A DNA stretch of 64,000 nucleotides from an uncultured Candidatus Saccharibacteria bacterium (GCA_964547425.1 CAZJNH010000006.1:6095-70094), one strand, 5' to 3'; numbered from the stretch's first letter, positions 16,742 to 37,569 are shown. The notes: a model not told the origin generated them from the letters alone. Made by a program: numbers and translations.

Positions 16742-17578
16742 CTATCCTCTCCTCTTTTTACTGCGGGCGCGGACTATGTACTTAGAAGTCAGTTTGCGGC
16801 GGCGGGTTTTTAGTCCCAGCGCCGGCTTGCCCCAAGGGGTTTTCGGGTTCGAAAGGCCAATTGAGTTACCGCCTTCACCACCACCGTGAGGGTGATCGAC
16901 TGGGTTCATAGCCTTACCGCGAACCTGTGGGCGCTTACCCAGATGGCGTTTCCGGCCAGCGCCGCCATACTTTAAGTTCTGGTGGTATTCGCGGCCAACG
17001 GTACCGATCGTGGCCATGCATTCGGCTCTAACCAGTCGGGTTTCACCACTGGGGAGCCTGATCTGCGCAAAGTCGCCCTCTTTGGCCGCTAGCTGGGCCT
17101 TGGCGCCGGCTGAGCGGACCAATTGGCCGCCTTTACCCGGGGTCAGCTCGATATTATACACACTCATACCGGCCGGGATAGCCGAAAGTGGCAAACGGTT
17201 TCCTGCGCGGACCTCTGAACCCATGCCGCTTTTGACGGTCTGGCCGGCTTTCATACCCGATCCAGCGATAATGTAAGCCTTACCGCCGCCTTCAATATCT
17301 ACAAGCGCGATGTTGGCTGAGCGATTGGGGTCGTATTCGATGGCGACAATTTTGCCAACTAAGCCATCAGCCAAGCGGAAATCAACCAGGCGGGTATAGC
17401 GTTTAACGCCGCCGCCGCGATGGCGAACGGTGATTTTACCCTGGGCGTTACGGCCGGCAGTAGACTTTTTAGAAACAATCAAAGACTTTTCCGGACGCTT
17501 TTTGGTCAGCTCGGCGTTGTCGGACAATACTTGGTGGCGCCGTCCCGGGGTAGTTGGCTTGTAGAGTTTTAGCGCCAT
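16742..17578 (-). CDS. rplB: 50S ribosomal protein uL2
   Basis: 278 aa; …HPHGGGEG… motif. Confidence 0.95.
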   Translation of the reverse strand: MALKLYKPTTPGRRHQVLSDNAELTKKRPEKSLIVSKKSTAGRNAQGKITVRHRGGGVKRYTRLVDFRLADGLVGKIVAIEYDPNRSANIALVDIEGGGKAYIIAGSGMKAGQTVKSGMGSEVRAGNRLPLSAIPAGMSVYNIELTPGKGGQLVRSAGAKAQLAAKEGDFAQIRLPSGETRLVRAECMATIGTVGREYHQNLKYGGAGRKRHLGKRPQVRGKAMNPVDHPHGGGEGGNSIGLSNPKTPWGKPALGLKTRRRKLTSKYIVRARSKKRRG

Positions 17579-17856
17579 TACTTCTTCTCCCCTTCTTCAA
17601 ACAGCGCAATACTTTGGCCTTTTTGCAGCTTCACATAGGCTTTTTTCTGGTCGGAGCGGCGGCCTTTGACCCGCTTAAAGGTCTTTTCTTTGCCGCGTTG
17701 GATCAACATATTGACCTCTTCGACCTTCACTTTAAAGGTGTCGGCAACGGCTTTGGCCACCTCGGGTTTTGTGGCGCTAGTGGGAACTTCAAAGACGTAC
17801 ACACCGCTAGAGGCTTGCTCTACGGCTTTTTCGCTGACCCTAGGCATTAACTTCAT
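17578..17856 (-). CDS. rplW: 50S ribosomal protein uL23
   Basis: 92 aa; L23 family. Confidence 0.9.
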   Translation of the reverse strand: MKLMPRVSEKAVEQASSGVYVFEVPTSATKPEVAKAVADTFKVKVEEVNMLIQRGKEKTFKRVKGRRSDQKKAYVKLQKGQSIALFEEGEKK

Positions 17857-18488
17857 TGTTTAGCCCCTAACCAGGCGACGGTTTTGTCCAGCGCTACTTT
17901 GGTAAAGATTATCAAATCAGCATTCAAAATACTGCGGGCGTTTAAGTAGGTGGCGGAAACTGTGTCAACATCGGCCAAATTGCGGGTAGCCCGGTCAAGC
18001 AGGTCACTTTTTGTCTCGAGAACTAACAATGTTTTGCCGGCGCCAATTTTCGCTAGCAACTTGGCAATCGGCTGAGTCTTTCCGTCTTTACTATCCAGAT
18101 TCTCGATCACATGGACTCGACCTTCGTTGGCCTGGCCAGACAGCGCCTGGGCGGTCGCCAACCGCTTCATTTTGGTGGTCAATCTGATTGAGTGATTTTC
18201 CATTCCAGTAGGGCCGAAGGCAATGCCTCCGCCGCGCCAAACCGGATTACGTCGCGAACCCACCCGGGCTCGCCCGGTACCTTTTTGGCGCCACGGCTTT
18301 TTGCCGCCGCCGCGGACTTCGCCCCTGCGTAACGTCTTAGGTCCGGCTGTGCGGTCCTCGGCCTCGGAGGCCCGGTACGACAAGGATAGTAAATCGGCGT
18401 TGATTTCCAGACCGAAAACTTCCTTCGGCAGGTTCAGCTTGGCCTCTTTTTTGGCGCCAGTAGCGCTATAGGCAGTAGCTTTAGACAT
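17853..18488 (-). CDS. rplD: 50S ribosomal protein uL4
   Basis: 211 aa; L4 family. Confidence 0.93.
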   Translation of the reverse strand: MSKATAYSATGAKKEAKLNLPKEVFGLEINADLLSLSYRASEAEDRTAGPKTLRRGEVRGGGKKPWRQKGTGRARVGSRRNPVWRGGGIAFGPTGMENHSIRLTTKMKRLATAQALSGQANEGRVHVIENLDSKDGKTQPIAKLLAKIGAGKTLLVLETKSDLLDRATRNLADVDTVSATYLNARSILNADLIIFTKVALDKTVAWLGAKQ

Positions 18489-19089
18489 CTTCGCCTCGGA
18501 TAATCACATAACCTCGGTTTGGACCAGGAACCGCGCCTTTGATGGCCAATAAATTCTTATCAGTAACAACTTGCTCGATCTTTAATCCGCGGACGGTCGT
18601 TTGCTCGGCGCCCATGTGACCGGCCATTTTCTGGCCTTTGACGACGCGCATCGGGAAGATCGAGCCGATTGAACCTGGTTTGCGGTAGTTTTTGGAGCCA
18701 TGGGTCTTTGGACCGCGAGCGAAGTTGTGGCGTTTAATCGTACCCGCGAAACCCTTACCTTTACTAACTCCGGTAATTTTAACCTTGTCGCCCGCCTCAA
18801 ATACGTCGCTTCCAACTTGGGATCCTACTTCAAGTTCATTGTCTTGAATTCGAATCTCACGCAAAAAGCTTGGGGTAGCATTGGCGGCTTTCAGGTGGCC
18901 CATCTGAGGCCGATTGTTTTTCTTGGCAGCACCAAAGCCCAGCTGAACAGCACTATAACCATCAGCGTCCTCGGTTTTGACCTGCGTAACTACACAAGGA
19001 CCAGCTTCGACTAAAGTCACCGGCACGGAGTTGCCGTCGGTGTCGAAGATCTTGGTCATTCCCAGTTTTCGTCCCAGTAAAGCCTTCAA
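18481..19089 (-). CDS. rplC: 50S ribosomal protein uL3 (TTG start)
   Basis: 202 aa; (M)KALLGRKLGMTKIFD…; start codon is TTG preceded by AAGGGA. Confidence 0.93.
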   Translation of the reverse strand: MKALLGRKLGMTKIFDTDGNSVPVTLVEAGPCVVTQVKTEDADGYSAVQLGFGAAKKNNRPQMGHLKAANATPSFLREIRIQDNELEVGSQVGSDVFEAGDKVKITGVSKGKGFAGTIKRHNFARGPKTHGSKNYRKPGSIGSIFPMRVVKGQKMAGHMGAEQTTVRGLKIEQVVTDKNLLAIKGAVPGPNRGYVIIRGEDV

Positions 19090-19217
19090 GTAATATCCCT
19101 TTTACCCCTCGACTACGCTCAGGGCTCTTCGAGCAAAATTAAAGCTGGTGAACCGCGGTTTCCTTCGACTTTGCTCAGGACCTGCTGGCTCGCCAGTGGG
19201 TTAATAGGTACCGAAGG

Positions 19218-19246
19218 ATCATAGCAATCAGTCGCCCACCTGTCAA
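19218..19246 (-). promoter_or_regulatory. Sigma-70-like promoter of the rplC-led ribosomal operon
   Basis: minus strand TTGACA-17 nt-TATGAT about 125 nt upstream of the rplC start; the leader contains a GAGCAAA…TTTGCTC hairpin. Confidence 0.55.
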
Positions 19247-19282
19247 CAGATTGAACCTGGAAATTCCCTCCTGGTAATACCC

Positions 19283-19311
19283 TTGACAGTTTATGCCTCT
19301 TATGCTAATAT
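19283..19311 (+). promoter_or_regulatory. Sigma-70-like promoter for the 19380 gene
   Basis: TTGACA-17 nt-TAATAT; the spacer contains TTATGC twice. Confidence 0.5.
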
Positions 19312-19379
19312 ATTGACCACTTTGAGGGTAATTAACTTATCCGAAAAGTACCTTTACTCAACACTACGAAAGGAGACAC

Positions 19380-20003
19380 ATGAACCGCCGCCTGATGGTT
19401 GCGGTCGTTGTTGTTTTCGGCTTAGCGGCGTTCGCCTGCGGCAAAGTCCAGCCTAAAGCTGAACTGACACCCAAGGCGACGGCAACGGTTGCCATCGCGA
19501 AGCCGGCCTGCGAGCCCTCCCTGACGGCGGTCTGCCTGAAGGACGGGTCGAAACTCTCGATCGGCGACAAAGTCGACGAGTCGAAGTTCAGCTGCAAGGC
19601 TCCGGACGGCGGCATCACCATGTGTGAGGCTCTCGACCAGAACGGCCCGCAGGGCAACATCTTCGCCTACACCGACGGAAAAGCGATCACAACACTTGTT
19701 GTGATCAACGCCGGCGAGGAGCCCAAGGAGCGGTCGTATTTCCCGAAGGTCCACTTCGAGGATACGCTCCAGCAGGCGACGCAAGCCCTCCCTGGTAGCA
19801 AGCCGTCTGTCGTCAATGGCATCCCCGTTCTCGAGGTTCGCCAGGAATCGATGTCGGTGTACTACCTGTTCGAACCCTGCCGCAGATTCAACGTCCGAGC
19901 TGACCAATCGGATTATCCGAACAGTCCGCTCTACGGCGCCGTGATCTCAGGCAGTGGTCAGCCTTCCGTCGACACGCTCGTTACCAAGACGGACTGTCGC
20001 TAG
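19380..20003 (+). CDS. Secreted or lipoprotein-like hypothetical protein (Cys-rich)
   Basis: 207 aa; N-terminal hydrophobic signal ending …AAFACGK; AAGGAGA RBS; followed by a terminator. Confidence 0.6.
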   Translation: MNRRLMVAVVVVFGLAAFACGKVQPKAELTPKATATVAIAKPACEPSLTAVCLKDGSKLSIGDKVDESKFSCKAPDGGITMCEALDQNGPQGNIFAYTDGKAITTLVVINAGEEPKERSYFPKVHFEDTLQQATQALPGSKPSVVNGIPVLEVRQESMSVYYLFEPCRRFNVRADQSDYPNSPLYGAVISGSGQPSVDTLVTKTDCR

Positions 20004-20020
20004 GTGAGAGTAAAGGTCAA

Positions 20021-20050
20021 GGCCCCGGATTTCCGGGGCCTTTTCCTTTG
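20021..20050 (+). terminator. Intrinsic terminator
   Basis: GGCCCCGGA-tt-TCCGGGGCC followed by TTTTCCTTTG. Confidence 0.7.
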
Positions 20051-20062
20051 CCTTGAATTTAT

Positions 20063-21340
20063 TTACCTCATGTAGCGATAGATTGTGCCGGTCGTCCCAA
20101 TCATCCAGGGAATACCGTTGGAGTCGACGGTAATATCCTGGGCGCCTCCGCTGATATTGGCCCAGTTGTTGCTTTCATTTCTGTAAAAGATGGCATGATT
20201 GTGGTTAACTCCCCAAACTTCGTTGTTTGGTCCGATACCTACATCAGCTAACCCGCCAGAGTTTTTATGCCAGGGGCTGCCGGAGTTGTCGTAAACATTG
20301 CCTGTGGTGTCGGATTCATTGCTAAGCGCCCAAGTGTTGCCGCCGGCCGTGCCCTCGATTCTGACTATGTAAGGATTCGGGTTGGAGAAGGTCGGCCAAC
20401 AATAGGAGAGAGTATGCCCTGGGCAATCGGTTTTACCGGTCCAGCGGTAGGTCTTGCCGTTGGTTCCATCGAGCCAAACCGCGCCGTTCCAGGCCGTACC
20501 GACGTCGGCAGCCACAGCGTTCATGCCTCTATATGTCCCGCTGATGTACCTGACCAGAGTATGACTGCTGCCCGATATAATCCAGGCGCTGCTAGAGTCA
20601 ACGTCAACCCGGTTAACCAGGCCGCCGCCTCCCTTGTCCGCCCAAGCGGTATTGTTGTTAACACGTTGGTAGAGGTCACCATTGGTGCCAGCGATCCAGA
20701 CTCCGGCGCGTCCAGCACCGATATCTTTGCCTGTACCGCCAACAGCGTACCAGTTGTCGAAGTGGCCGGTGCCAATCACGTCCCCTGCCGGAGTCTGATA
20801 CTCCTGAACCGCCTGGCCCCAGTTACCAGCTATAGTGTCGATGCCACCCTGGTTAGCCGAAACCACAATTCCAACGTGCCCACTTCCGTCTCCGTTGGTA
20901 TAAACCATATCTCCGGGCTGGATATGGCTAAGCTGATAGCCGCCGTACCATTGGCCATGAGCCGCAAACCAGTCTTTCATATCGCCTGTGCTCGGAATGT
21001 CCCAGTCTCCGTCGGCTGGGGAGTAGCTCCGTCCGGTGCCTTTAATGATGCGGTTACCAGAATTGGCGTAAACCCAGCTAAGAAAGTCGGCGCACCAAGC
21101 CTCACAACGGTGGGCGTACTTGGTGCAGTTTCCAGTGCCTGAAGGAGTCCCTCCGGTCTCGTGGTAGCCAATTTGGCTTTTAGCGATAGAGACGATGTTG
21201 CTGCCATCGCTGGCATGAATTGAAAGTAATCTGACCGTAAAAAAGGTCGAGGCCAGAGCTATAACACCTAGCGCCAAATTGAGGTTGAATCTTAAGCCAC
21301 GGGCTATTCTGAGTCTCTTTGTTGCGGTTCTACTTGGCAT
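20063..21340 (-). CDS. Membrane-anchored CHAP-domain peptidoglycan hydrolase fused to propeller/lectin-like repeats
   Basis: Cys…His CHAP-like core (NCTKYAHRCEAWCADF…GHVGIV) then repeated …G..W..G.NG..Y… units; start trimmed to MPSRTATKR…TM helix (the ORF track begins 99 nt earlier). Confidence 0.6.
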   Translation of the reverse strand: MPSRTATKRLRIARGLRFNLNLALGVIALASTFFTVRLLSIHASDGSNIVSIAKSQIGYHETGGTPSGTGNCTKYAHRCEAWCADFLSWVYANSGNRIIKGTGRSYSPADGDWDIPSTGDMKDWFAAHGQWYGGYQLSHIQPGDMVYTNGDGSGHVGIVVSANQGGIDTIAGNWGQAVQEYQTPAGDVIGTGHFDNWYAVGGTGKDIGAGRAGVWIAGTNGDLYQRVNNNTAWADKGGGGLVNRVDVDSSSAWIISGSSHTLVRYISGTYRGMNAVAADVGTAWNGAVWLDGTNGKTYRWTGKTDCPGHTLSYCWPTFSNPNPYIVRIEGTAGGNTWALSNESDTTGNVYDNSGSPWHKNSGGLADVGIGPNNEVWGVNHNHAIFYRNESNNWANISGGAQDITVDSNGIPWMIGTTGTIYRYMR

Positions 21341-21535
21341 TGACGCTGTGCTCCGTTTTGGCTGGGTCATAAACCGGCAGATGCTTGATCCGGTTGTCAT
21401 CCATCCAGCGTTGAGTGTAGAAAAAAAGCACAACCGCAAAGTTAATGGCGATTGCCAGAATTAAAAAATTACGGGTCGTTAGCCAGCTTGTTTTGTGTTT
21501 TGCCATTACTTAGAGCCTAGAAGCATAAGCGTAAT

Positions 21536-22609
21536 ATGTCAAATACAAAAACGTGCTGTGCTAAAATACTTCTTATGAATCCAGAATCACCACAACCAGG
21601 ATCGGAACAAGATCAAAACTCCGGGCAGCAGCTGGCCCAAGAACTAAACCAAATTCAGGCCGAGCAGGCCCAGGACAAACCTGCCGAACCCACCAAAGAC
21701 GGCCGCTTTCGGCGCTGGACCCGCAATGCATTAATTGCAGCAGGCATTGGGGGCGCTCTCGGAGGCGCCGAGCTCGCTACACACCAGCAGGAAAAGCCCG
21801 ACAAGGCTCCTACACCATCCACATCCCCGGTGACGCCAGAGCAGACAGAGGCGCCGCCGTTTCTAAATCAATTCGCGGCAGAACGGGCAAAGCCTTTCAA
21901 GATTGGAGAGATCGACAATATTATTAAAGTTGGTAACTTCGAAACCCTCAAACAGCATCAGCTTCAAGTCGTTGACCGATTAGCCTCCAGCGAAAAATCA
22001 ACTTTCACAGCGATCAGTATGGACGGCGAAAAACCGCCAGTGGATCTAAACGATTTCGCTTTTGGAAACCAGGTTGCGAACGAGGTGGCAGGTAGCGGCA
22101 TTAGCATCAACTACCAGTACACGCAGGGTAATGAGGTTAAAAACGCTACCTTTCAAGTCAAAGCCCGAACTCCGGAAAACACCTACGTTATCTTCGTCCC
22201 CGAAAGTACCGATCTATCGAAATACGAGCCGAGTACCGGACAAGGTGCCGAGGCTTTTACTCACTGCTCCGAAAACGCTTGCGTGACAATGCTCAAAAAC
22301 GCCCAGCACACACCTGAAGGAGCTGAACCGGCAACAGGTATTAGTACCAACCGGATCAACGCCTTCACCGCGGCTATGCAATCCTCATTCGAGGTCACGG
22401 GTGGACAGGATGCTGCCGAAAACGCGATCGGCTTCAATGCTTTCACTAAAGGCGTTGGAACCGCTTTAACCAATATTGAGTCCGGCCAAGACTACGAAGC
22501 CTATAGCTCATACGTTAGCGTGCCTCCCGGCGGCGAACAGGCCCAACCTCCGATATACAAGGTAGACCAACAGACCTACAAGCAAATGTCCGATCAGCTC
22601 TACAAGTAG
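21536..22609 (+). CDS. Hypothetical membrane-anchored protein (Q/P-rich linker plus C-terminal globular domain)
   Basis: 357 aa; one TM segment (ALIAAGIGGALGGAELA); the start is uncertain and may be the internal MNPESPQ… at 21575. Confidence 0.5.
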   Translation: MSNTKTCCAKILLMNPESPQPGSEQDQNSGQQLAQELNQIQAEQAQDKPAEPTKDGRFRRWTRNALIAAGIGGALGGAELATHQQEKPDKAPTPSTSPVTPEQTEAPPFLNQFAAERAKPFKIGEIDNIIKVGNFETLKQHQLQVVDRLASSEKSTFTAISMDGEKPPVDLNDFAFGNQVANEVAGSGISINYQYTQGNEVKNATFQVKARTPENTYVIFVPESTDLSKYEPSTGQGAEAFTHCSENACVTMLKNAQHTPEGAEPATGISTNRINAFTAAMQSSFEVTGGQDAAENAIGFNAFTKGVGTALTNIESGQDYEAYSSYVSVPPGGEQAQPPIYKVDQQTYKQMSDQLYK

Positions 22610-22624
22610 TAAACAGCCTACTTT

Positions 22625-23971
22625 TTACGGAGTGTTGCGCCAGTAGACGTAAACTTGACCGTTCTTGCCGATAATCCAAGGCTTACCGTGCACGTCCACG
22701 CTAATCGCCTTACCTCCACCTTGCAGGGTGGGATTCCAGTGAGGTGAAGTGGTTGACCCATTCCACTTGTAGACGGTTGCGCTGGAGTTTACTATCCACA
22801 CTCCGTTGTCGCCGCCGATGCCGATATCAATCGCACCGCCGGTAATTTTTTTGTACACATTGCTGCTCCAGTAGTAGATGTTACCTGCGGTTTCGGACTC
22901 ATTACTGATAATCCAGGATCCACCGCCGGCGCTCACATCGATGCGCTTTGCGAACGGCGCGGGCGGCGTGGTCGATTGCCTAGGCCAAGAGGGACTGGAT
23001 GTTGAGCCATTCCATTTATAAGTATTGCCGTTGGTTCCAACTAGCCAGACGACACCGCTGGATCCGATTCCAATGTCTGATGCCGTGGCATTCATGTAGG
23101 TCCAGGCCGGGCCGCGGAAGACATGGCTATGGTCGGCGGTGTTAATGCGCCATGGGTTGCTGGGATCCATGTCTATATGAGAGGTGCCAGTACCAGCCAA
23201 CTGGGTCCAGCTTGAGGAATTTAACCTGTAAACCCTGCCGTCGGTCGCGGCAACGTTAACGCTATTCATTACACCAATGTCGGTCGCCTGCAGGCCGTTT
23301 GGCAAATCGGGCATTTTAGTCCATGAAGAGGCGTATTTATTGAAAGCCGCTGTAACTTGAGACTGGACGTCGTAAAAGGTGTACGCGGCACAAGCGGAGT
23401 CTTTGCAGGATGGCGGGGGCCCGGGAGTTGCCTGGAAGTGGACGTGCGACCCATTACCGCATTCGCCGCCGGCATTGCCAACGGTGCCGAGCGTCGTACC
23501 AGCCCCTACCGACGCACCGGAGGTGATGTTGCTGGGCATCGAGTTGGGCGTTAGGTGGTAATACGCGTAGTAGATACCGTCGCTGCCGTGAATCGCCACC
23601 TGGTCCTCCGCTGCGTAATGCCTGGCGCTATAAATCGTACCGGCCTTCGCCACCTGAACGATCCGTCCGCAGGGGGCAAAAATATCCGAAGCGTTGTAGT
23701 CATGATGGACGTTGTAATTTAGAGCGTACGATCGTTTTTCAGCGGACGGCCAATGATCGGCGATATCAGCCTTGGTGGTTCTAAGCGGGAAGGCGCTTAG
23801 TGCCGGGATGGTAGCAGCGTGGCTAAAGAAGATCCAATATACCCCGACCACCGATACCAAAGCCAAAAGCACAATTAGAGTAGTCTTGTTGGGCTTAAAC
23901 CTTTTCGATAGTTTTCGCTTTGCGCGCACTTTCTTCCTTTTCCTAGGCATCATTAGTAACAGTACAAGCAT
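22625..23971 (-). CDS. Membrane-anchored M23 (LytM-type) metallopeptidase fused to propeller/lectin-like repeats
   Basis: 448 aa; HxxxD (HHDYNASD) and HxH (SHVHF) M23 motifs, then repeats similar to those in 20063..21340. Confidence 0.6.
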   Translation of the reverse strand: MLVLLLMMPRKRKKVRAKRKLSKRFKPNKTTLIVLLALVSVVGVYWIFFSHAATIPALSAFPLRTTKADIADHWPSAEKRSYALNYNVHHDYNASDIFAPCGRIVQVAKAGTIYSARHYAAEDQVAIHGSDGIYYAYYHLTPNSMPSNITSGASVGAGTTLGTVGNAGGECGNGSHVHFQATPGPPPSCKDSACAAYTFYDVQSQVTAAFNKYASSWTKMPDLPNGLQATDIGVMNSVNVAATDGRVYRLNSSSWTQLAGTGTSHIDMDPSNPWRINTADHSHVFRGPAWTYMNATASDIGIGSSGVVWLVGTNGNTYKWNGSTSSPSWPRQSTTPPAPFAKRIDVSAGGGSWIISNESETAGNIYYWSSNVYKKITGGAIDIGIGGDNGVWIVNSSATVYKWNGSTTSPHWNPTLQGGGKAISVDVHGKPWIIGKNGQVYVYWRNTP

Positions 23972-24001
23972 AAGCGTTATTCGTCAATCAGGTTACTACC
24001 A

Positions 24002-24030
24002 TTGACAGCATAAGCTTTTTATGCTAATGT
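24002..24030 (+). promoter_or_regulatory. Sigma-70-like promoter for the 24074 gene
   Basis: TTGACA-17 nt-TAATGT; the spacer is GCATAAgctttTTATGC (6-bp inverted repeat). Confidence 0.5.
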
Positions 24031-24073
24031 AGTTTCGCACCTTTTTACCGGAATACTACTGAGAGGAGCACAT

Positions 24074-24427
24074 GTGAGCCGTTTTCGGCTGATGTTGCTG
24101 TCATGTGGCGTGGTACTGGTCGTCGCCATTGGCGTGCGAGTGACGACTCACGATGTGCCGGCTGGCAAGGTCACGGCTAGTGAAGGCAGGTCCTTGCTGC
24201 CGCCGATGCCTAGCTGCCAGTACGGAATGGACGCAGACGGCTGTGTGGCGGCTCCAACCCCTGAAACACCGCTCTACTGCGTCCGGGAAGGTCACCTTCC
24301 CGAAACGCCTCCTGGCTGTATCGTCGTCGACAAGATCGAAGACGTGCCTCCAGGCGTAGTGTGGATACCGTCGCATGGCGGGCTGACCGATCCGGACGCG
24401 ATTCGTCGCTTCTGGGCGAACGATTAG
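24074..24427 (+). CDS. Small secreted hypothetical protein (GTG start)
   Basis: 117 aa; signal-like N-terminus; GAGGAG RBS; terminator follows. Confidence 0.55.
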   Translation: MSRFRLMLLSCGVVLVVAIGVRVTTHDVPAGKVTASEGRSLLPPMPSCQYGMDADGCVAAPTPETPLYCVREGHLPETPPGCIVVDKIEDVPPGVVWIPSHGGLTDPDAIRRFWAND

Positions 24428-24443
24428 CCAACCCCCCCTGCCC

Positions 24444-24485
24444 AAAAAGAGGACCCACGGCCTACCGTGCGGTCCTCTTTGTTTT
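24444..24485 (+). terminator. Intrinsic terminator
   Basis: GAGGACC-cacggcctaccgtgc-GGTCCTC followed by TTTGTTTT. Confidence 0.7.
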
Positions 24486-24505
24486 GGCGTGATAATATTA
24501 ATGCT

Positions 24506-24709
24506 ATGAAAAAACGCGTTATTTGGTGGAAGATCACCAACTATCACTTCTTCGCTCTAATCGTCATCTACTTCGGCATGAGTATGCTCCAAATCGGGCT
24601 GCCGGAGCGCTATGAAAGCACCCGCAGCGCGCTTTCACAAATCCAACTGGTAATGCTCGGTTTTTTGGGGTTATTAACGGTTATCAACCTGTTTCGTAAC
24701 TGGAAATAA
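24506..24709 (+). CDS. Small two-TM membrane protein
   Basis: 67 aa from the internal Met (MKKRVIWWKITNYHFFALIV…); the ORF track's upstream start lies inside the terminator. Confidence 0.4.
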   Translation: MKKRVIWWKITNYHFFALIVIYFGMSMLQIGLPERYESTRSALSQIQLVMLGFLGLLTVINLFRNWK

Positions 24710-24714
24710 TTTAG

Positions 24715-25344
24715 CTAAATCTGGCAACTGGCGCTGGCAAGGATTGTGCCGGCTTTCCCGTCCCGAAGGATTGCGGAATATTTACCGGACCTGAGTCCGA
24801 GTTCGGTGTCGGTCGCTGATCCGGTAGCGGCTTGGCTGACAAAGTCTATAACCGTGCCTGAGCGCATCAACACAATGTTGCGGTTTTTGGCGTTCTGCCA
24901 GCTCATACTCCATTTAATCGAACTATGGCTAAGACGAGCACAGCTCAAGGCACCCGCGGGCGATAGGTTGGTATCACAGCTGCCGCCGTGGACCAGCATA
25001 GTTCCGGAGTTAACGGTAAAGGTATAGTTTCCAGCGGCCAGGTCGGAGCCTCCCTTCCAGCAGCCGGAGGTCGGTGAAGGATCGTTCGACGTCGAAACCG
25101 CGCGGCCGTTGTAGGTGATGGCATGAGAGCTCGGCCCGGTAGAGCGGTAACCAAATTCGTATTGGCCGGCGGCCTGAACCGAACAACTGTCGCCCGCGGA
25201 CATCTGAACGATGCCGCTTGCACAACTGGCGGTCGCGGCGTGGCTGAAGTAAAGGTATATCCCGAAAGCGATGGCGGTTAAACCCGCGGCCATAAGCAGG
25301 GTCATTGGGCTAAGCTTTACGCCTTTTTTGATGCGGGTAGCCAC
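24715..25344 (-). CDS. Membrane-anchored or secreted Cys-rich hypothetical protein
   Basis: 209 aa; N-terminal TM or signal; 8 Cys. Confidence 0.5.
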   Translation of the reverse strand: MATRIKKGVKLSPMTLLMAAGLTAIAFGIYLYFSHAATASCASGIVQMSAGDSCSVQAAGQYEFGYRSTGPSSHAITYNGRAVSTSNDPSPTSGCWKGGSDLAAGNYTFTVNSGTMLVHGGSCDTNLSPAGALSCARLSHSSIKWSMSWQNAKNRNIVLMRSGTVIDFVSQAATGSATDTELGLRSGKYSAILRDGKAGTILASASCQI

Positions 25345-25610
25345 TAGAAGGTAACCGCTGAAAGGTTAAGGAAGAAGCCGCGGGCGGTGACGGCGGCGAT
25401 AATAGCGGCGACCAATAGAATCGCGTATTCGATCTTGCGGTCAATTTGGAATTTATCGTGCTGAGCCAGGCCAAAGCCGATTAGCATTCCAAGCGGGAAG
25501 ACGGTTTTGCCGTTGTACTGCAGCCAAATCAAACCAAGTATCGTGTAAAGCAGGATTTTCAGAAAATAAGAACTGTCGGTTTCGCGCGCCGATTTTTTTG
25601 GCATGACCAA
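25344..25610 (-). CDS. Small membrane protein
   Basis: 88 aa; 2-3 hydrophobic helices. Confidence 0.45.
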   Translation of the reverse strand: MVMPKKSARETDSSYFLKILLYTILGLIWLQYNGKTVFPLGMLIGFGLAQHDKFQIDRKIEYAILLVAAIIAAVTARGFFLNLSAVTF

Positions 25611-25646
25611 ATCCTAACAAAGTGCTTACGCTTTGTCCACCTCAGG

Positions 25647-26405
25647 CTACCCGGCGCGGACGCCGAGGATTTCTTTGAGTTTGGCTCGCGCAGAGTCTAC
25701 CGCGGAGCGAAAGGTGTCTTTGGCTTGATTGACCGCGCTGCGGCGGGTGGCCGCGAGCTCCTTGACGACAGGTCCGACCCGGTCAACGCTCAACCGGTCG
25801 GCTTTGAGAGAGTCGCGGGCGGCGGTGATGGCGGTTCTCAGATCAGACCGAATAGTTGAAGGATCTACCCCGGCCGCGCAATCGGCCGATGCCTTGTTAA
25901 TCGCGGTGCTAACGGCGGCCTGGAAGTCCGACAGGGCTTTGTCGATCTCGGCGCGGCGAGTTGTAATCGCTGATTTAACCCCGGTACGAAAGATTTGACG
26001 TGATTCGTCGACACCGGCACGCCGGGCGGCCAAAGCATCCTGGGTGGTGTTAGCAAAGTCGATAACCGCGTTGGTTTGTTCGGTTGTGGTTGCGCGTTTT
26101 TTGAGTTTGGCGATGTGCTGCTCCAGGTTTGCATCGAATTTGGCGCGCTCCTCGGCGATTTGTTGGTCGCGCTTTTCGACCCGATTTGTCAAAGCTTCGT
26201 CGCGCTTGGCACGATTGGCTACAAGACCTTGTTCGCGGCGACCCATTTCGGCAGCAGAACGTGTTTTGAAGTTATCGATGCGGGCGCAAACCCGGCTGTT
26301 ATCGGCGGCGTGAGTCAGGAGCGGTGCCAGCAGTAACCCGATGAGAAATAGCAGCACAAGTATGATAAATACTATCTGTTTAGTGCGCTTAGAACGAGTT
26401 GTCAT
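25647..26405 (-). CDS. Membrane-anchored coiled-coil protein (Ala/Arg-rich)
   Basis: About 252 aa from MTTRSKR…; one TM helix then a long helical region. Confidence 0.5.
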   Translation of the reverse strand: MTTRSKRTKQIVFIILVLLFLIGLLLAPLLTHAADNSRVCARIDNFKTRSAAEMGRREQGLVANRAKRDEALTNRVEKRDQQIAEERAKFDANLEQHIAKLKKRATTTEQTNAVIDFANTTQDALAARRAGVDESRQIFRTGVKSAITTRRAEIDKALSDFQAAVSTAINKASADCAAGVDPSTIRSDLRTAITAARDSLKADRLSVDRVGPVVKELAATRRSAVNQAKDTFRSAVDSARAKLKEILGVRAG

Positions 26406-26667
26406 TGTATGCCCCCAAAACGTCAACGGCGTCTTTCGTATCGGCCTGGATAATATCTAAATCACTGTCGCTTTCGGACATAATCGAATCTTCGGCGGCA
26501 ACTCCCTGCTTGAGTGCGTTACTGGCATCGTCAACGTTGCCGGTAGCGCTAATCGGCTCAATATCACTCGGCTTCGGCTCAGCCGTGTTGTTTTTGATCG
26601 CCACGGCGGCGGCCAGCACCACTAAAATAATCGCGATTGGGGCAACAAGTTTTAACCGAGCGTTCAT
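26389..26667 (-). CDS. Small secreted or anchored acidic protein
   Basis: 92 aa; N-terminal TM or signal. Confidence 0.45.
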   Translation of the reverse strand: MNARLKLVAPIAIILVVLAAAVAIKNNTAEPKPSDIEPISATGNVDDASNALKQGVAAEDSIMSESDSDLDIIQADTKDAVDVLGAYNDNSF

Positions 26668-26693
26668 GCCTCTATTATAAGGTATTTGTTTAA

Positions 26694-26750
26694 GGTCTAA
26701 CCCTTTTTCGTCTCGACCTTTATTTTCATAGATTGTATAGGGTTAGACCT
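26694..26750. repeat. 57-nt palindromic intergenic element, copy a
   Basis: AGGTCTAACCCT-ttttCGTCTC…gatTGTAT-AGGGTTAGACCT; 12-bp perfect stem. Confidence 0.7.
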
Positions 26751-26753
26751 TGG

Positions 26754-27329
26754 TTAAGGGGACCAGTTGGGGTTGCGGCCGGTTAACGCCAGCAGCTTGT
26801 CCTGGACTGATGCGTCTTCGGAGACGGTCTTGGCTGCCTTGAACGCGCCTCCCGAACGCCAATCCTCGGCGTATTTCTGAAAATAGGCATAGGCGGACTC
26901 GACTAGCTCCTCGGGCAATTTGGCGTCTTTACCGATCGCTTTGGCCAAATCCCAGGCGTGAACCAGGTGATCACCGAACATTTGCTCGGCATAGTCAACG
27001 GATGCAGTCTCACCGTGCGACAGCTGGACCGTTTTGTCGTCGGCTCCGGGTGCGCTAAATGCGTCGGTGGCGATCGCTCCGGCATTTGTCCGGGCAGCTT
27101 TTGGGTCATCGCCCAAAACATCACCGTCAAACTTTGTGCCAACTTCGGCAATTGTTTTACCGTCCAGCAACGCTTTTACCCATAAATCTTCACTTGTGAC
27201 GTGATTAACCAAGTCTCGGACGGACCAACCTTCGTCTGGAGTCGGGGAGTCCCATTGCTCGTCGGTTATTTGAGAAACATAGCCATCAAACACCTTCGCA
27301 GCCGAAATGTAATTCGCGATTTGCTTCAT
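26754..27329 (-). CDS. DinB/MDMPI_N-like protein (TIGR03086-like)
   Basis: 191 aa; C-terminal …LLALTGRNPNW; metal-binding His pattern. Confidence 0.5.
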   Translation of the reverse strand: MKQIANYISAAKVFDGYVSQITDEQWDSPTPDEGWSVRDLVNHVTSEDLWVKALLDGKTIAEVGTKFDGDVLGDDPKAARTNAGAIATDAFSAPGADDKTVQLSHGETASVDYAEQMFGDHLVHAWDLAKAIGKDAKLPEELVESAYAYFQKYAEDWRSGGAFKAAKTVSEDASVQDKLLALTGRNPNWSP

Positions 27330-27336
27330 ACCTACT

Positions 27337-27504
27337 CCTATCCGTGTAAAAATTTATAAACTAGCCAGATTCCCAATATTGCGCCGATCGCTCCGGTTAA
27401 TAGCGTCCAAGGCGAGAAGCCGCTGACGCCAAATAGAACCGGAGCGTACCCGCCAGCAACCGATCCGATTGTGCCTGCCAAATAATAACTTCGCTTGTCC
27501 GACA
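27337..27504 (-). CDS. Possible small membrane protein (55 aa)
   Basis: Not in the ORF track; minus-strand translation MSDKRSYYLAGTIGSVAGGYAPVLFGVSGFSPWTLLTGAIGAILGIWLVYKFLHG; weak RBS. Confidence 0.25.
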
Positions 27505-27654
27505 TAGCTTTAGTTTAGCAGTTTGGTTTGTATAAGGTCTCTCCCTCTTTCGTCTAAATGTGACACGAGCCAACCTAGACCAAACGGAACGAGGACTTTC
27601 CGATAAATAGAATACTGCTCCGCAGTGACGACTTGGGATAGGTTGGTGAGATGG

Positions 27655-28854
27655 CTAGTCCTTTTGGCGGAGTTTTTTACCTTTTATCTCGTCCGGCAAA
27701 AAGCCTTTTGCGTGCTGGAAATTGGCCTCCCATTTATAATCCTTGCCGTAATCCAGCTCCTTCATCAACTTGGTTGGCGCGTTTCGCAGATGCAGAGGAA
27801 CCTGGGCGGTCGGATTATCCCGCACCGCGGAGTTGGCGGTGCCAAGCGAATTAGCAACTGCTCGGCTTTTGGGCGCTTCGGCCATATAAATAGTGGCTTG
27901 AGCTAGTATCAACTGGCATTCCGGGAGTCCAACCCGTTCCACCGCCAAGAAACAAGCCGTGGCCTGCTCAAGCGCCCGCGGATCGGCCAGCCCAATGTCT
28001 TCCGAAGCAAAGATCACAATCCGGCGGGCAATAAACTTGGGGTCTTCGCCCGACTCCAGCATTCTTGCCATATAAAACAGCGCCGCGTCGGCATCCGATC
28101 CGCGCATACTTTTGATAAACGCTGAGATCCAGTCGTAGTGCCAATCCCCTTTTTTGTCGTACTTTAAGCCTGTTTTTTGCATCGCTTGTTTGACCGTCTC
28201 AATAGTGATAGCTCCGTCAGTAATCCCGGCAGCGGCCTCCAACCCATTTAGAGCAACGCGGGCGTCGCCGGCTGAGAGTTTGGCTAGCAGTGATTTGGCG
28301 TCAGGTTTAATGACTGCCTTTAGCTCCTTGGACGCATCGGTAATGATCCTTTCAATTTGATCGTCTTTGAGGTTGTGCAATACGACCACTCGACTGCGGG
28401 ACAACAATGGACCTATGACTTCAAAGCTGGGGTTTTCGGTAGTGGCGCCGATTAAGATGATTGTTCCCGCCTCGACGTGCGGCAAAAAGGCGTCTTGTTG
28501 GGCTTTGTTGAAGCGATGGATTTCATCGACAAACAATATCGTCTTTTTGCCAATCTGCTGGCGTTCGCGGGCGGCTTCGATCAGTTTTTTGACTTCCGCG
28601 ATGCCGGTGGTGACCGCCGAAACTTCTTCAAATGCGTATCCGCTGGACGAGGCGATGATGCGGGCCAAAGTCGTTTTCCCTGTTCCCGGCGGACCCCACA
28701 ATATCATCGACACCGGCTGTTTTTTCTCAATTACCGTACGCAAAAATTGATTGGCACCGGTGATGTGATCCTGACCAATAAATTCATCGAGCGATTTAGG
28801 CCGAACCCGGTCAGCTAATGGCCGATAAGCATCCGTCGCAAATAGACTATCCAT
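27655..28854 (-). CDS. rarA: Replication-associated recombination protein A (AAA+ ATPase)
   Basis: 399 aa; Walker A GPPGTGKTT; MgsA/RarA family layout. Confidence 0.85.
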   Translation of the reverse strand: MDSLFATDAYRPLADRVRPKSLDEFIGQDHITGANQFLRTVIEKKQPVSMILWGPPGTGKTTLARIIASSSGYAFEEVSAVTTGIAEVKKLIEAARERQQIGKKTILFVDEIHRFNKAQQDAFLPHVEAGTIILIGATTENPSFEVIGPLLSRSRVVVLHNLKDDQIERIITDASKELKAVIKPDAKSLLAKLSAGDARVALNGLEAAAGITDGAITIETVKQAMQKTGLKYDKKGDWHYDWISAFIKSMRGSDADAALFYMARMLESGEDPKFIARRIVIFASEDIGLADPRALEQATACFLAVERVGLPECQLILAQATIYMAEAPKSRAVANSLGTANSAVRDNPTAQVPLHLRNAPTKLMKELDYGKDYKWEANFQHAKGFLPDEIKGKKLRQKD

Positions 28855-28892
28855 GCCTCACATTATACCTTATAGGCGAACAACGATCGAAC

Positions 28893-30056
28893 TTAAGCTT
28901 TTGGCCACCAGCTGTGGGTGAAAACGTTGTGTAAGATTTCGGCGGCTTCGTCGGGCTTAACCGGACCGGGTTGGGAATAATCATCAATTCGATATGGAAC
29001 GAGTTCGGCCGATAGAAGTTTTCCGCCTTCGAATTTAGCTTTTAAAAATGTTCCTTGCTTTGTCTGGCGCGACCATTCCTGGTCGAAGACAAAGTTGCCT
29101 AGACTGTATAGGGCCAATTTTCCGTGATACCACTCAACTCCCTGTACGGTATGCGGATGAGAACCGATCACTATTGTTGCGCCGGCATCGAGAGCGCGAT
29201 GCGCCACCGTTCGCTGTTCCTCGTTGGCAACATGCGTGTACTCCGTTCCCCAATGATAGTAGACCAGCACCGCATCGGCCTTGGCCTTAGCGGCTTTGAT
29301 ATCGGCTTCCATTTGGCGAACCTGGCTTTCGTTGAACGGAAACCACGGCGCGATCCCGACCATCGCCATGCCAGGTGAAGTCGCCGTGGCGTCGGATCCG
29401 CCAACGATAGTGTCATATCCGAGCATCGCCACTTTAACTCCCTTAACGGACATAATTAATGGCGTGTGTGCCTCGGTAAAATTGTGCCCGCCGCCGAAGT
29501 ATTTAATTCCTCGCTTTTTCAGTGCATTCATGGTGTCGACAAATGCATCAGCTCCAGCGTTAAAGCTGTGGTTGTTGGCCAGGTTCATCGCGTCGATCCC
29601 GGCGTAGGTTAGCCCGTCGGCCACCCTGTCCGGCGAAGCGAACTGCATACAGGTGTTACACAAAATCGTGTGGGCATCCGAAATAGCTGCTTCTTGGTCC
29701 GCGGTGGTTAGATCGGCGTCCTTTACTTGCTTTGCCATCTTCAAAAACGGGTACAACACGCCATGCTGCTGCACTTTTTGATATACGACCCGGCCAATAA
29801 TAATATCTCCCAAGGCATTTAGCGTCCACGAAGACTTCGCCTCGCCGGATTGCTTAACTATCAGACCGGTCTTGAGCGGTACCACCGGAACACCAGCTGC
29901 CGGTTCAGCTGATTGGACGACGGGCGGGGTTGGGACGTCTTGAGCAGTTTGTGCCGGAATCGGTTTGGGCTTGTGAAAATAGCGATAGCCCAGCCAGCCG
30001 GCGGCCAGCGCGATGACGGCAAATACGGCAAGGGAAATCACTAGCCATTTCTTCAT
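28893..30056 (-). CDS. CapA-family metallophosphatase (poly-gamma-glutamate synthesis-like), membrane-anchored
   Basis: 387 aa; N-terminal TM; …VYYHWGTEY…GSHPHTVQG… CapA motifs. Confidence 0.7.
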   Translation of the reverse strand: MKKWLVISLAVFAVIALAAGWLGYRYFHKPKPIPAQTAQDVPTPPVVQSAEPAAGVPVVPLKTGLIVKQSGEAKSSWTLNALGDIIIGRVVYQKVQQHGVLYPFLKMAKQVKDADLTTADQEAAISDAHTILCNTCMQFASPDRVADGLTYAGIDAMNLANNHSFNAGADAFVDTMNALKKRGIKYFGGGHNFTEAHTPLIMSVKGVKVAMLGYDTIVGGSDATATSPGMAMVGIAPWFPFNESQVRQMEADIKAAKAKADAVLVYYHWGTEYTHVANEEQRTVAHRALDAGATIVIGSHPHTVQGVEWYHGKLALYSLGNFVFDQEWSRQTKQGTFLKAKFEGGKLLSAELVPYRIDDYSQPGPVKPDEAAEILHNVFTHSWWPKA

Positions 30057-30093
30057 AACTTAATTGTAACGCTAGCGCTTAACTAAATGAAAA

Positions 30094-30150
30094 GGGAACA
30101 ACCCTCCCTCGTCTAGTCTTTAGTTAAACGGGTTGTATAGGGTTGCACCC
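30094..30150. repeat. 57-nt palindromic intergenic element, copy d (diverged)
   Basis: GGGAACAACCCT-ccCTCGTCT…gggtTGTAT-AGGGTTGCACCC. Confidence 0.55.
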
Positions 30151-30175
30151 TTTTCGGATGGTTGGCTGCGTCAGA

Positions 30176-30577
30176 TTACGGCAGGAATGGAGGTGGGCCA
30201 CCGCACTGGTAGTAGTACTGGAGCCCTAGGCAGAAGACTTGCCACTGCAATGAATTCTGTTGCGAGTACAGGCCGTTTAGCAGGTTCTGGTAGTAATTAA
30301 TCTGAGTCGTCAGGCTAGCGGCCGATGCAGATTCGCCTAGTCCTTTATTGATAAGAGTTTGGCGTGAGGTTTGTAGGGTATTGATCGTATTTTGGTAGCC
30401 GATGATAAGCCGGTTAACGCTTGTTAGCTGGGATTGTGCCGTGGCTAGTTGGGCCTTGAGGTTGGCACAGTAAACCGCAGGCGGTACTTCCGGCGCAGCG
30501 TTAGCCATTGCTGGAATAGCCATTACCCCTAGTGGAATCGCAAACGCTACCATCGAAAGAGCTAGTTTCTTAAACAT
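30176..30577 (-). CDS. Secreted Q/N-rich coiled-coil protein
   Basis: 133 aa from MFKKLALSMVAF… signal peptide; AATGGAG RBS. Confidence 0.5.
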   Translation of the reverse strand: MFKKLALSMVAFAIPLGVMAIPAMANAAPEVPPAVYCANLKAQLATAQSQLTSVNRLIIGYQNTINTLQTSRQTLINKGLGESASAASLTTQINYYQNLLNGLYSQQNSLQWQVFCLGLQYYYQCGGPPPFLP

Positions 30578-30685
30578 AACAGAACTCCATTCATTTATGA
30601 GTTTAGTTAAGCCCTCCCCCTGTAGGATTGCATTGTGCAAAATTCCAAACGAAAAGCCCCCGACGATAAAGTCAAAGACTTTTCG

Positions 30686-31561: not shown

Positions 31562-31627
31562 TCTCTACACCCCCTCTCATATTTCAACGTACGCAAACTT
31601 AGCTGCCTGATTATACCGCTTTTGAAG

Positions 31628-32395: not shown

Positions 32396-32507
32396 TTATC
32401 CATTATAATCTCTCTCTAATTCCGGCTTTCTTGAGTCGGTCGCTCGAATGAGTAAGGGGTTGCCTGCCGCCCTCTGGCGGGTGCGTACCTTGGGAGGTGA
32501 GCCTTCT

Positions 32508-33017: not shown

Positions 33018-33096
33018 ATAGAGCCTCAATGCAAGAGCGTTGGGGCTCTTGCATTTAAACCGAACAACAAACGAACGGTTGTGCTAAGATATCTCA

Positions 33097-37552: not shown

Positions 37553-37569
37553 TTTTTGCACTTTTAGCA

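What the first reader, a model, noticed from the sequence alone, without database searches (positions are those of the whole stretch)
19283..26667. Cluster of secreted or anchored cell-wall hydrolases fused to propeller/lectin-like repeats, with companion secreted proteins
A CHAP-domain protein (20063..21340) and an M23/LytM metallopeptidase (22625..23971) are each membrane-anchored and followed by similar W/G-rich repeats of about 45 residues (…VDV.SSG…W.IG.NG..Y.W…), tectonin/PLL-like by eye. Around them are a Cys-rich lipoprotein, a Pro/Gln-rich anchored protein, small secreted Cys-rich proteins and a membrane-anchored coiled-coil protein. Several are driven by related TTGACA…TTATGC…TAAT promoters. 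In a small-genome, possibly host-attached bacterium this looks like a surface and host-cell-wall remodelling toolkit, lectin domains targeting the hydrolases to a glycan.
Basis: partly seen in the sequence, partly recalled or inferred. Interest (0 to 1): 0.5.

Follow-up and report, generated by a model that had tools for sequence, protein, structure and literature searches.

The report
Lectin-guided cell-wall hydrolase pair
A deep-branching relative of the tiny, host-attached Saccharibacteria carries two exported cell-wall-cutting enzymes, each fused to a sugar-binding six-bladed propeller; this fusion is extremely rare and gives a testable candidate for how such bacteria recognise and open a cell wall.

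Summary

The two propellers are paralogues (40% identity). The organism is a Saccharimonadia-like Patescibacterium.

The fusion is very rare. An exhaustive search of 1.84 billion representatives found two further full-length relatives. Their contigs carry the same gene set: small membrane protein B0, B, D and small secreted E. One also has the start of C. In one relative the CHAP enzyme carries a PLL propeller instead of Tectonin.

A promoter pattern, TTGAC-N8-12-TTATGC, occurs four times in 64 kb, exactly before A, B0-B, D and E (0.13 expected). It recurs before the orthologues.

Best reading: a co-regulated pair of exported, glycan-targeted wall hydrolases. Whether they cut a host's wall (my preference, about 0.45) or the cell's own wall (about 0.35) cannot be decided from sequence.

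This is a new variant of the known design "catalytic domain plus wall-targeting domain". No phage or cell-division gene context was found.

The parts
19283..19311 (+). Promoter of A: TTGACA-17-TAATAT, with TTATGC directly before the -10 box
19380..20003 (+). A: 207-aa lipoprotein-like secreted protein with 7 Cys. Membership of the module is uncertain.
   Evidence: No Pfam or NCBIfam family. A lipoprotein sits in a similar position in L001, but homology is not established.
20019..20042 (.). Ten-pair GC-rich hairpin between the convergent genes A and B; a likely two-way terminator
20063..21340 (-). B: exported CHAP peptidoglycan hydrolase fused to a six-bladed Tectonin propeller. Signal or anchor residues 18-42; CHAP about residues 47-190 (20771-21202), Cys83/His155/Asn173; Tectonin residues 197-425 (20066-20752).
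21330..21506 (-). B0: 58-aa single-pass membrane protein. It overlaps the start of B by 11 nt, and is conserved upstream of the CHAP gene in L001 and L084.
21514..21542 (-). Promoter of B0-B: TTGACA-tattacgCTTATGCTTc-TAGGCT
21575..22609 (+). C: 344-aa protein (357 aa from ATG 21536) with a Gln/Glu/Pro-rich N-terminus, a weak membrane segment, a Pro/Thr linker and a domain of unknown fold. Its N-terminus is conserved in L001.
   Evidence: No family found.
22625..23971 (-). D: exported M23 metallopeptidase fused to a six-bladed Tectonin propeller. The start is probably 23929 or 23953. In 448-aa numbering: M23 subfamily domain residues 57-217 (23321-23803), with HHDYNASD 89-96, His139 and His176-x-His178; Tectonin residues 217-448 (22628-23323).
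23959..23987 (-). Promoter of D: TTGACG-aataacgCTTATGCTTg-TACTGT
24002..24030 (+). Promoter of E: TTGACA-GCATAAgctttTTATGC-TAATGT, with an inverted repeat in the spacer
24074..24427 (+). E: 117-aa secreted Cys-rich protein with the conserved core YCV.EG...C..V.RIEDVP.G...P.HGGL.DP..IR..W. It lies next to D in all three genomes.
24715..26667 (-). The I-H-G-F gene string: I 26389-26667, H 25647-26426 (coiled coil), G 25344-25610 (a small membrane protein conserved before rplC in Saccharibacteria) and F 24715-25344 (secreted, 6 Cys). These are neighbours; nothing shows they belong to the hydrolase module.

Best explanation
This is a co-regulated module that exports two complementary peptidoglycan hydrolases: an M23 zinc endopeptidase (D) and a CHAP cysteine amidase/endopeptidase (B).

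Each enzyme is guided by a C-terminal six-bladed Tectonin lectin propeller. The propeller would dock the enzyme, through several weak sugar contacts, onto a repeated glycan in a cell wall.

Shown here: the domain identities, the propeller fold, the kinship of the two propellers, N-terminal export signals, the rarity of the fusion, its conservation as a gene set with B0 and E in related genomes, and a shared promoter element conserved across genomes.

Inferred: after Sec export, probably with cleavage after the [S/T/I]-H-A motif, both enzymes bind the same glycan and cut two different bonds, opening the wall locally.

My preferred target is the wall of another cell, a host or neighbour of this Saccharimonadia-like epibiont. 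In that reading the lectin sets which cells are attacked, and swapping Tectonin for PLL re-targets the CHAP enzyme. B0 and E would be membrane and secreted partners that control or restrain the enzymes.
For: - Domains.
- Catalytic residues are kept. For CHAP, the Cys in WCADF and the His in GHVGIV are invariant in 7 relatives. For M23, HHD..A[AS]D, YYH and HxHF are kept in 3 orthologues and across the subfamily.
- Rarity: of the 150 best hits among 1.84e9 representatives, only D itself, P0017 and P0133 combine M23 with Tectonin, and no other CHAP-Tectonin protein appears. P0002, the third full-length relative, came from the word-index search.
- Conserved gene set and lectin swap.
- Co-regulation.
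- The closest relatives of both catalytic domains lack lectins. Those whose context was read look like type IV secretion wall hydrolases.
- Hints towards a foreign target. Tectonin and PLL lectins recognise unusual sugars: O-methylated for both, and fucose for PLL (PMC12203525). Host binding by the saccharibacterium TM7x involves a PLL-like lectin pilin and is blocked by rhamnose (PMC11623550). "Signal peptide + M23 + C-terminal targeting domain" is the lysostaphin/zoocin A design (PMC9662197). The module is absent from the Saccharibacteria loci examined.
Against: - No experiment or sequence feature identifies the ligand or the target cell.
- D's lectin domain is more conserved than its catalytic domain between two relatives (65% against 46%). 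That fits a stable, possibly self, ligand better than an arms race.
- The residues of the Tectonin 2 sugar site are only partly kept. The Asn equivalent survives in B blade 5 and D blades 2 and 5.
- M23 lacks the canonical HxxxD spacing.
- The structure prediction for B failed (pLDDT 37).
- Only 64 kb of the genome is seen, so I cannot tell whether other autolysins exist.
- No immunity-type gene (FemABX-like) is present.
Confidence: 0.45

Rival explanations
1. They are the organism's own autolysins. The Tectonin propeller acts as a wall-binding module, as choline-binding, LysM, SH3b or SLH domains do in Gram-positive autolysins. It would hold both enzymes on the cell's own wall polysaccharide or on GlcNAc of its own peptidoglycan, for growth and daughter-cell separation.
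For: - Modular autolysins with wall-binding domains are the common case (PMC9662197).
- The two enzymes share paralogous propellers, so they should co-localise.
- The lectin domain is more conserved than the M23 domain.
- The second-best structural match is a fish-egg lectin, solved in apo and ligand-bound forms. From my own knowledge it binds GlcNAc, a peptidoglycan sugar.
- The module sits in a stable chromosomal position next to rplC in two genomes.
- Base composition equals the genome average.
Against: - The module is missing from about 80 related Patescibacteria loci and from all but three genomes in 15 billion proteins. Related bacteria therefore divide without it.
- No division or wall-synthesis genes lie nearby.
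- The CHAP enzyme exchanged its lectin family between relatives, which is odd for a fixed self ligand.
Confidence: 0.35
2. They are wall-piercing hydrolases that serve the cell's own envelope machines, a type IV secretion system or pili. They would have split off from PrgK-like multidomain hydrolases.
For: - A member of the same M23 subfamily (P0003) lies in a PrgI / TraC-like / VirB4-like / VanY cluster.
- The nearest CHAP relative, P0011, is a larger protein with the CHAP domain at its C-terminus, and many metagenome relatives have the same layout.
Against: - No secretion-system genes are in or near the cluster.
- Machine-associated hydrolases are not known to need lectin domains.
- Both enzymes have their own export signals and promoters.
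Confidence: 0.07
3. It is the remnant of a phage lysis cassette: a holin-like B0, a CHAP endolysin with a signal-anchor-release type N-terminus, and an M23 lysin.
For: - There are weak PHROG endolysin matches (E 9e-7 and 5e-8).
- A small membrane-protein gene overlaps the CHAP gene.
- B's membrane segment is rich in Gly, Ala, Ser and Thr.
Against: - No phage structural or replication genes lie nearby.
- IMG/VR holds no relatives of D.
- No viral structure matches both domains.
- The chromosomal position is conserved and the composition is normal.
Confidence: 0.03
4. They are mainly adhesins. The propellers would mediate attachment, and the catalytic domains would be weak or inactive.
For: - M23 lacks the canonical HxxxD spacing.
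- CHAP is only just above the Pfam cut-off in the full-length protein.
- Lectin-like pilins mediate host binding in TM7x.
Against: - All catalytic residues are conserved across orthologues and across the wider subfamilies.
- The variant HHDYNAAD motif is itself strongly conserved in more than 50 proteins.
Confidence: 0.05

Closest known systems
Lysostaphin and zoocin A (secreted M23 bacteriolysins with a C-terminal targeting domain)
   Same: Export signal, then an M23 catalytic domain, then a C-terminal domain that directs the enzyme to a particular cell wall (PMC9662197).
   Different: The targeting domain here is a six-bladed Tectonin lectin propeller, not SH3b or TRD. No FemABX-type immunity gene is present, and the module is not on a plasmid. 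The M23 domain belongs to another subfamily with an HHDYNA[AS]D motif. It is paired with a CHAP enzyme that carries the same kind of propeller.
Laccaria bicolor Tectonin 2 (PDB 5FSB/5FSC) and carp fish-egg lectin (4RUQ)
   Different: Those are stand-alone eukaryotic defence lectins. Here the propeller is the C-terminal module of bacterial wall hydrolases. Only some blades keep the Tectonin 2 sugar-site residues, so the ligand cannot be inferred.
Photorhabdus PLL-family lectins, and the PLL-like minor pilin PilX2 of the saccharibacterium TM7x
   Same: In relative L001 the CHAP orthologue carries a PLL propeller (PF26607). PLL lectins bind fucose and O-methylated sugars. A PLL-like domain is implicated in host binding by a saccharibacterium.
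   Different: The window's own proteins carry Tectonin, not PLL. PLL lectins have seven blades and are stand-alone or fused to a pilin, not to hydrolases.
Modular Gram-positive autolysins and endolysins (catalytic domain plus a choline-binding, LysM, SH3b or SLH wall-binding domain; CHAP enzymes such as LytN and SsaA)
   Same: The same design logic: a wall-binding module concentrates a CHAP or M23 domain on its substrate.
   Different: A propeller lectin is not among the partner domains described in the M23 review (no mention of 'propeller' or 'lectin'). It was found in only 4 of the 68 nearest Tectonin proteins.
PrgK-like wall hydrolases of monoderm and patescibacterial type IV secretion systems
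   Same: A member of the same M23 subfamily lies in such a cluster, and the nearest CHAP relative is a larger protein with a C-terminal CHAP domain.
   Different: Here the domains are separate, each has its own signal and a lectin, and no secretion genes are adjacent.

Membership tests
Peptidase M23 (LytM/lysostaphin family) | Score above the Pfam gathering threshold for PF01551 | tested here: met
   41.6 bits against a cut-off of 28.7. PDB M23 chains match at E 1e-3.
Peptidase M23 (LytM/lysostaphin family) | Zinc-binding HxxxD motif | tested here: inconclusive
   Tyr, not His, stands at Asp-4. The conserved motif is HHDYNA[AS]D, with His 6 and 7 residues before the Asp. It is invariant in 3 orthologues and typical of a subfamily of more than 50 proteins. 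Whether His89 or His90 binds zinc was not tested.
Peptidase M23 (LytM/lysostaphin family) | HxH motif and the catalytic His after the YY strand | tested here: met
   His176-Val-His178 and His139 are invariant.
Peptidase M23 (LytM/lysostaphin family) | M23 fold | tested here: inconclusive
   In the model, residues 80-170 have pLDDT 82-96 apart from one loop. Stand-alone viral M23 models match at TM 0.63. The PDB searches were dominated by the propeller.
CHAP (NlpC/P60-like cysteine peptidase/amidase) | Score above the Pfam gathering threshold for PF05257 | tested here: met
   26.7 bits for the whole protein and 30.9 bits for the domain alone, against a cut-off of 26. All 7 family relatives also match CHAP.
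CHAP (NlpC/P60-like cysteine peptidase/amidase) | Catalytic Cys and His | tested here: met
   Cys83 in WCADF and His155 in GHVGIV are invariant in alignment A8, as is Asn173. The same motifs align to those of CwlO.
CHAP (NlpC/P60-like cysteine peptidase/amidase) | Papain-like fold | tested here: inconclusive
   The structure prediction for B failed (pLDDT 36.9 from a two-sequence alignment).
Tectonin lectin domain (PF19193) | Score above the Pfam gathering threshold | tested here: met
   B 49.4 bits and D 53.2 bits, against a cut-off of 30.
Tectonin lectin domain (PF19193) | Six-bladed beta-propeller matching solved tectonins | tested here: met
Tectonin lectin domain (PF19193) | Sugar-site residues of Tectonin 2 (Ser200, Asn216, Tyr222, Trp3) | tested here: inconclusive
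   The aromatic residue and the blade-initial Trp are kept in most blades. The Asn equivalent survives only in B blade 5 and D blades 2 and 5.
Tectonin lectin domain (PF19193) | Binding of O-methylated or other glycans | not testable with these tools
   This needs glycan arrays or binding assays.
Class III bacteriocins (bacteriolysins of the lysostaphin type) | An adjacent immunity gene (FemABX-like), often on a mobile element | tested here: not met
   No such family is found among the neighbouring genes. Base composition is that of the genome.
Phage lysis cassette | Phage genes nearby, or relatives in viral genomes | tested here: not met
   There are no PHROG matches other than to the two enzymes themselves. 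IMG/VR has no relatives. BFVD has no two-domain match.
   The neighbours are ribosomal-protein genes, orphan secreted proteins, and MDMPI, MgsA and PGA_cap genes. No fts, env or mur genes are present.

The most novel reading that the evidence does not exclude
The propellers read unusual sugar decorations (O-methylated sugars, rhamnose or fucose) on the wall or glycolipids of a particular host, plausibly an actinobacterium. The module would then be a lectin-guided lytic device used by a patescibacterial epibiont to open the host wall. Exchanging the lectin, Tectonin for PLL, would change host range. The conserved promoter element would tie its expression to host contact.
Probability: 0.2. Interest if true: 0.75.

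Novelty: new variant of a known kind. Interest (0 to 1): 0.55.

Why it matters
How ultrasmall Patescibacteria recognise a host and breach its wall is largely unknown. Recent work points to glycan recognition by lectin-like pilins (PMC11623550). This module physically joins a lectin to the cutting enzymes, which gives concrete proteins to test:
- the propellers on glycan arrays and on candidate host cells;
- the enzymes on sacculi.

It also adds the Tectonin/PLL propeller to the known wall-targeting modules of peptidoglycan hydrolases, which is of interest for engineered lysins. Finally, it offers a conserved promoter element as a handle on regulation in an uncultured lineage.

If the enzymes turn out to be ordinary autolysins, the finding reduces to an unusual wall-binding domain.

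Tried and rejected
1. GTDB genome scan with the D profile: no relatives. The source genome is therefore not a species representative, and the taxon had to be inferred from L3, S10, EF-Tu and gene G.
2. JGI metagenome and IMG/VR scans with the D profile: nothing.
3. Metagenome scan with the CHAP profile: 80 distant CHAP loci, none with Tectonin or the companion genes.
The two-sequence alignment gave an unusable model (pLDDT 37).
5. AFDB fold search: library unavailable.
6. Profile search of PDB sequences with the CHAP family: only marginal NlpC/P60 hits (E 0.018).
7. Rfam scan of the window: no RNA families.
8. Homology of lipoprotein A to the lipoprotein beside the L001 module. A weak pairwise hit (E 1e-3, mostly the signal peptide) was not reproduced, so it is treated as unproven.
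9. A possible M23-like protein beside an E homologue in L085: no detectable similarity to D, so it was dropped.
10. The idea that the S10-L3 gap is a dedicated surface-protein island. Rejected: in other Patescibacteria the gap holds unrelated genes (TsaD, CTP synthase, ABC-F), and here it also holds housekeeping genes.
11. Literature search for the SRA runs, to learn the habitat: nothing.
12. The Tectonin 2 structure paper (Sommer 2018) is not held. The site residues were taken from a review figure legend.

Full report
**What is there**

The region lies directly upstream of the ribosomal-protein genes rplC-rplD-rplW-rplB (16742-19089, - strand). Its genes are listed here in order.

| Gene | Coordinates, strand | Description |
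|---|---|---|
| A | 19380-20003, + | lipoprotein-like, 7 Cys |
| B | 20063-21340, - | CHAP hydrolase with Tectonin propeller |
| C | 21536 or 21575-22609, + | Pro/Gln-rich protein |
| D | 22625-23971, - | M23 peptidase with Tectonin propeller |
| E | 24074-24427, + | small, secreted, Cys-rich |
| I-H-G-F | 24715-26667, - | string of four genes |

Base composition is that of the rest of the window (0.53-0.55 GC). Rfam finds no RNA genes.

**Domains**

Pfam places B in CHAP (26.7 bits for the whole protein, 30.9 for the domain alone, cut-off 26) and in Tectonin PF19193 (49.4 bits, cut-off 30). It places D in Peptidase_M23 (41.6 bits, cut-off 28.7) and in Tectonin (53.2 bits). NCBIfam and PHROGs give only weak, generic hydrolase or endolysin matches.

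Against PDB sequences the best hit of both proteins is Laccaria bicolor Tectonin 2 (5FSB): E 3e-17 for B and 5.6e-8 for D.

Each C-terminal half divides into six blades of 33-45 residues that share the pattern W...G...D[IV]G....G..W......G..Y. The two propellers are collinear and 40% identical over 232 residues (E 1e-35). They share even the SNES[DE]T.GN insertion in blade 4.

An AlphaFold model of D has mean pLDDT 82.9, and above 90 over most of the propeller. Its best structural matches are:

**Active sites**

In the CHAP domain, the Cys of WCADF(L/V)SWVY, the His of GHVGIV and a downstream GN are invariant in seven relatives.

D's M23 domain belongs to a distinct and populous subfamily (52 of the 150 best database hits). 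Its motifs are FPL.TTK, NCHHDYNAADIF, YYY.HM and HLHFD. His139 and His176-x-His178 are present. The canonical HxxxD is replaced by HHDYNA[AS]D, with Tyr at the usual His position. I regard the enzyme as probably active, but the zinc ligand is untested.

The model of B was unusable (pLDDT 37).

**Export**

B, D, F and H have a basic N-terminus and then a hydrophobic stretch of 17-20 residues. This is followed by [S/T/I]-H-A and a small residue. It looks like a signal-peptidase site, so the enzymes may be released rather than anchored. This is an inference; no predictor was available.

**Organism**

L3 is at most 61% identical to anything among 185,579 species representatives. The best matches are unnamed MAGs and Saccharimonadia. 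EF-Tu and S10 agree (up to 83% identity). Gene G, an 88-aa membrane protein, is found upstream of rplC in 36 of the fetched relatives' loci, mostly Saccharibacteria (38 loci counting the two that are the window's own sequence).

The usual rpsJ-rplC junction is open here. It measures 8 bp to 5.5 kb in 60 compared loci, but 18.5 kb in the window. Its content there is mixed: the module plus MgsA, a PGA_cap protein, a sigma-70 factor, an aldo-keto reductase, a Pif1 helicase and a methylase.

**Rarity and conservation**

Word-index searches of 5.8 billion protein clusters found one full-length relative of D (P0002, 51% identity) and none of B.

An exhaustive HMMER search of 1.84 billion representatives, using a profile of D and P0002, gave 9,794 hits in total. 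Among the 150 best, only D itself, P0017 (E 1e-70) and P0133 combine M23 with Tectonin. P0133 has a different domain order.

Of the 68 nearest Tectonin proteins, 4 carry M23 and only B carries CHAP. Others are fused to matrixin, astacin or papain-like peptidases.

Genome, metagenome and viral contig scans with the D profile found nothing. Distant CHAP relatives never carry Tectonin.

The contigs of the two relatives repeat the gene set.
- L001 has the start of C, then E, D, B0 and the CHAP gene. Its CHAP gene ends in a PLL-type propeller (PF26607) instead of Tectonin.
- L084 has the CHAP gene (truncated by the contig end), B0, D and E, and then the first 14 codons of rplC.

B0, B, D and E, plus the start of C in L001, therefore form a conserved module. 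In at least two genomes it lies next to rplC.

E belongs to a six-member family. It also occurs on other, unassigned contigs that carry none of the hydrolase genes. F, H and I were not found in any fetched locus. A's counterpart in L001 is not demonstrably homologous.

**Regulation**

TTGAC-N8-12-TTATGC occurs four times in 64 kb. All four lie in sigma-70-like promoters in front of A, B0-B, D and E, against 0.13 expected and none of 100 shuffles reaching four.

The hydrolase promoters of three genomes align as TTGAC..A..AC.CTTATGCTT..A...T with a 17-nt spacing. The proteins they drive are only 32-51% identical. The promoters of A and E form a second type, TTGACAG...TTATGC-TAAT.T.

A conserved spacer element argues for a shared regulator. 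The 8-mer CTTATGCT is over-represented in the window, 9 copies against 2 expected.

**Mechanism**

The data support an exported pair of wall hydrolases that cut different bonds. Both are steered by paralogous multivalent lectin propellers to the same glycan, and they are switched on together.

The closest relatives of both catalytic domains lack lectins. Those whose context was read resemble type IV secretion wall hydrolases. The lineage therefore seems to have re-used such domains by adding signals and lectins.

The target is not determined. Points in favour of a foreign wall:
- The module is restricted to one small lineage.
- It follows the lysostaphin/zoocin-like design.
- The known role of Tectonin and PLL lectins is to read unusual sugars: O-methylated for both, and fucose for PLL.
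- A PLL-like lectin pilin and rhamnose-sensitive host binding are reported for TM7x.
- The lectin was swapped in L001.

Points in favour of the cell's own wall:
- Wall-binding autolysins are the general rule.
- D's lectin domain is more conserved than its catalytic domain.
- Fish-egg lectin, the second-best structural match, binds GlcNAc. This point is from my own knowledge.

I put the foreign-wall reading at about 0.45 and the autolysin reading at about 0.35. Phage origin, a role serving secretion machines, and a pure adhesin role are minor alternatives.

**Novelty**

"Catalytic domain plus wall-targeting domain" is a classic design. A Tectonin or PLL propeller as the targeting domain of M23 and CHAP enzymes is not mentioned in the M23 review I read, and it is nearly absent from the databases searched. 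I therefore class this as a new variant of a known kind. Its interest is moderate to fairly high, because it yields directly testable candidates for wall recognition by an uncultured epibiont lineage.

Noticed in passing
window 19089-37597: The normally tight rpsJ-rplC junction is split by 18.5 kb. In 60 compared loci the gap is 8 bp to 5.5 kb, and it is variable in Patescibacteria, with unrelated contents.
   Followed up: partly
window 25344-25610 (-): Gene G, an 88-aa membrane protein without a Pfam family, is conserved just upstream of rplC in 36 relatives' loci, mostly Saccharibacteria (28-55% identity). Its function is unknown.
   Followed up: partly
window 63582-63601: The palindrome GCTTATGC-tggca-GCATAAGT lies in front of the trigger factor (62257-63540) and clpP (61661-62260) genes. 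It uses the same half-site as the module's promoters, so a shared regulator is possible.
   Followed up: partly
window 34000-38000: This stretch has low GC (0.45-0.47 against about 0.53). It holds an N6/N4 DNA methylase (36050-37030), an overlapping 192-aa ORF without a family (36992-37570, possibly the restriction enzyme) and a PD-(D/E)XK nuclease (34654-35322), right next to rpsJ. It looks like an inserted restriction-modification element.
   Followed up: partly
window 26754-27329 (-): This gene encodes a TIGR03086 / MDMPI_N (mycothiol-type, DinB-fold) protein at 138 bits. From my own knowledge that family is typical of Actinomycetota, which would be unexpected in a patescibacterium and might reflect transfer from a host lineage.
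   Followed up: no
window 21506 and 23953; L001 2213: The -10 boxes of the B0 and D promoters end 5-7 nt before an ATG. This suggests leaderless or very short-leader mRNAs, and an alternative start of D at 23953.
   Followed up: no
L085 4580-5602; L087 1-894; P0167: Homologues of E occur on contigs that carry none of the hydrolase genes, directly after a Cys-rich lipoprotein (a weak DUF6636 match in L085). P0167 carries two copies of the E domain in tandem.
   Followed up: partly
P0133 (547 aa): This protein has its Tectonin blades in the N-terminal and middle part and an M23 domain at the C-terminus, the reverse order of D. It looks like an independent invention of the same pairing.
   Followed up: no
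L168 979-9827: P0003 is a 608-aa protein combining GDSL lipase, lysozyme and an M23 domain of the same subfamily as D. It lies in a PrgI / TraC-like / VirB4-like / VanY cluster close to dnaA and dnaN.
   Followed up: no
window 43744-44916 (-) and 28893-30056 (-): Two further envelope proteins are present: a 390-aa right-handed beta-helix protein with a signal peptide, and a membrane-anchored PGA_cap (CapA-like) protein.
   Followed up: no
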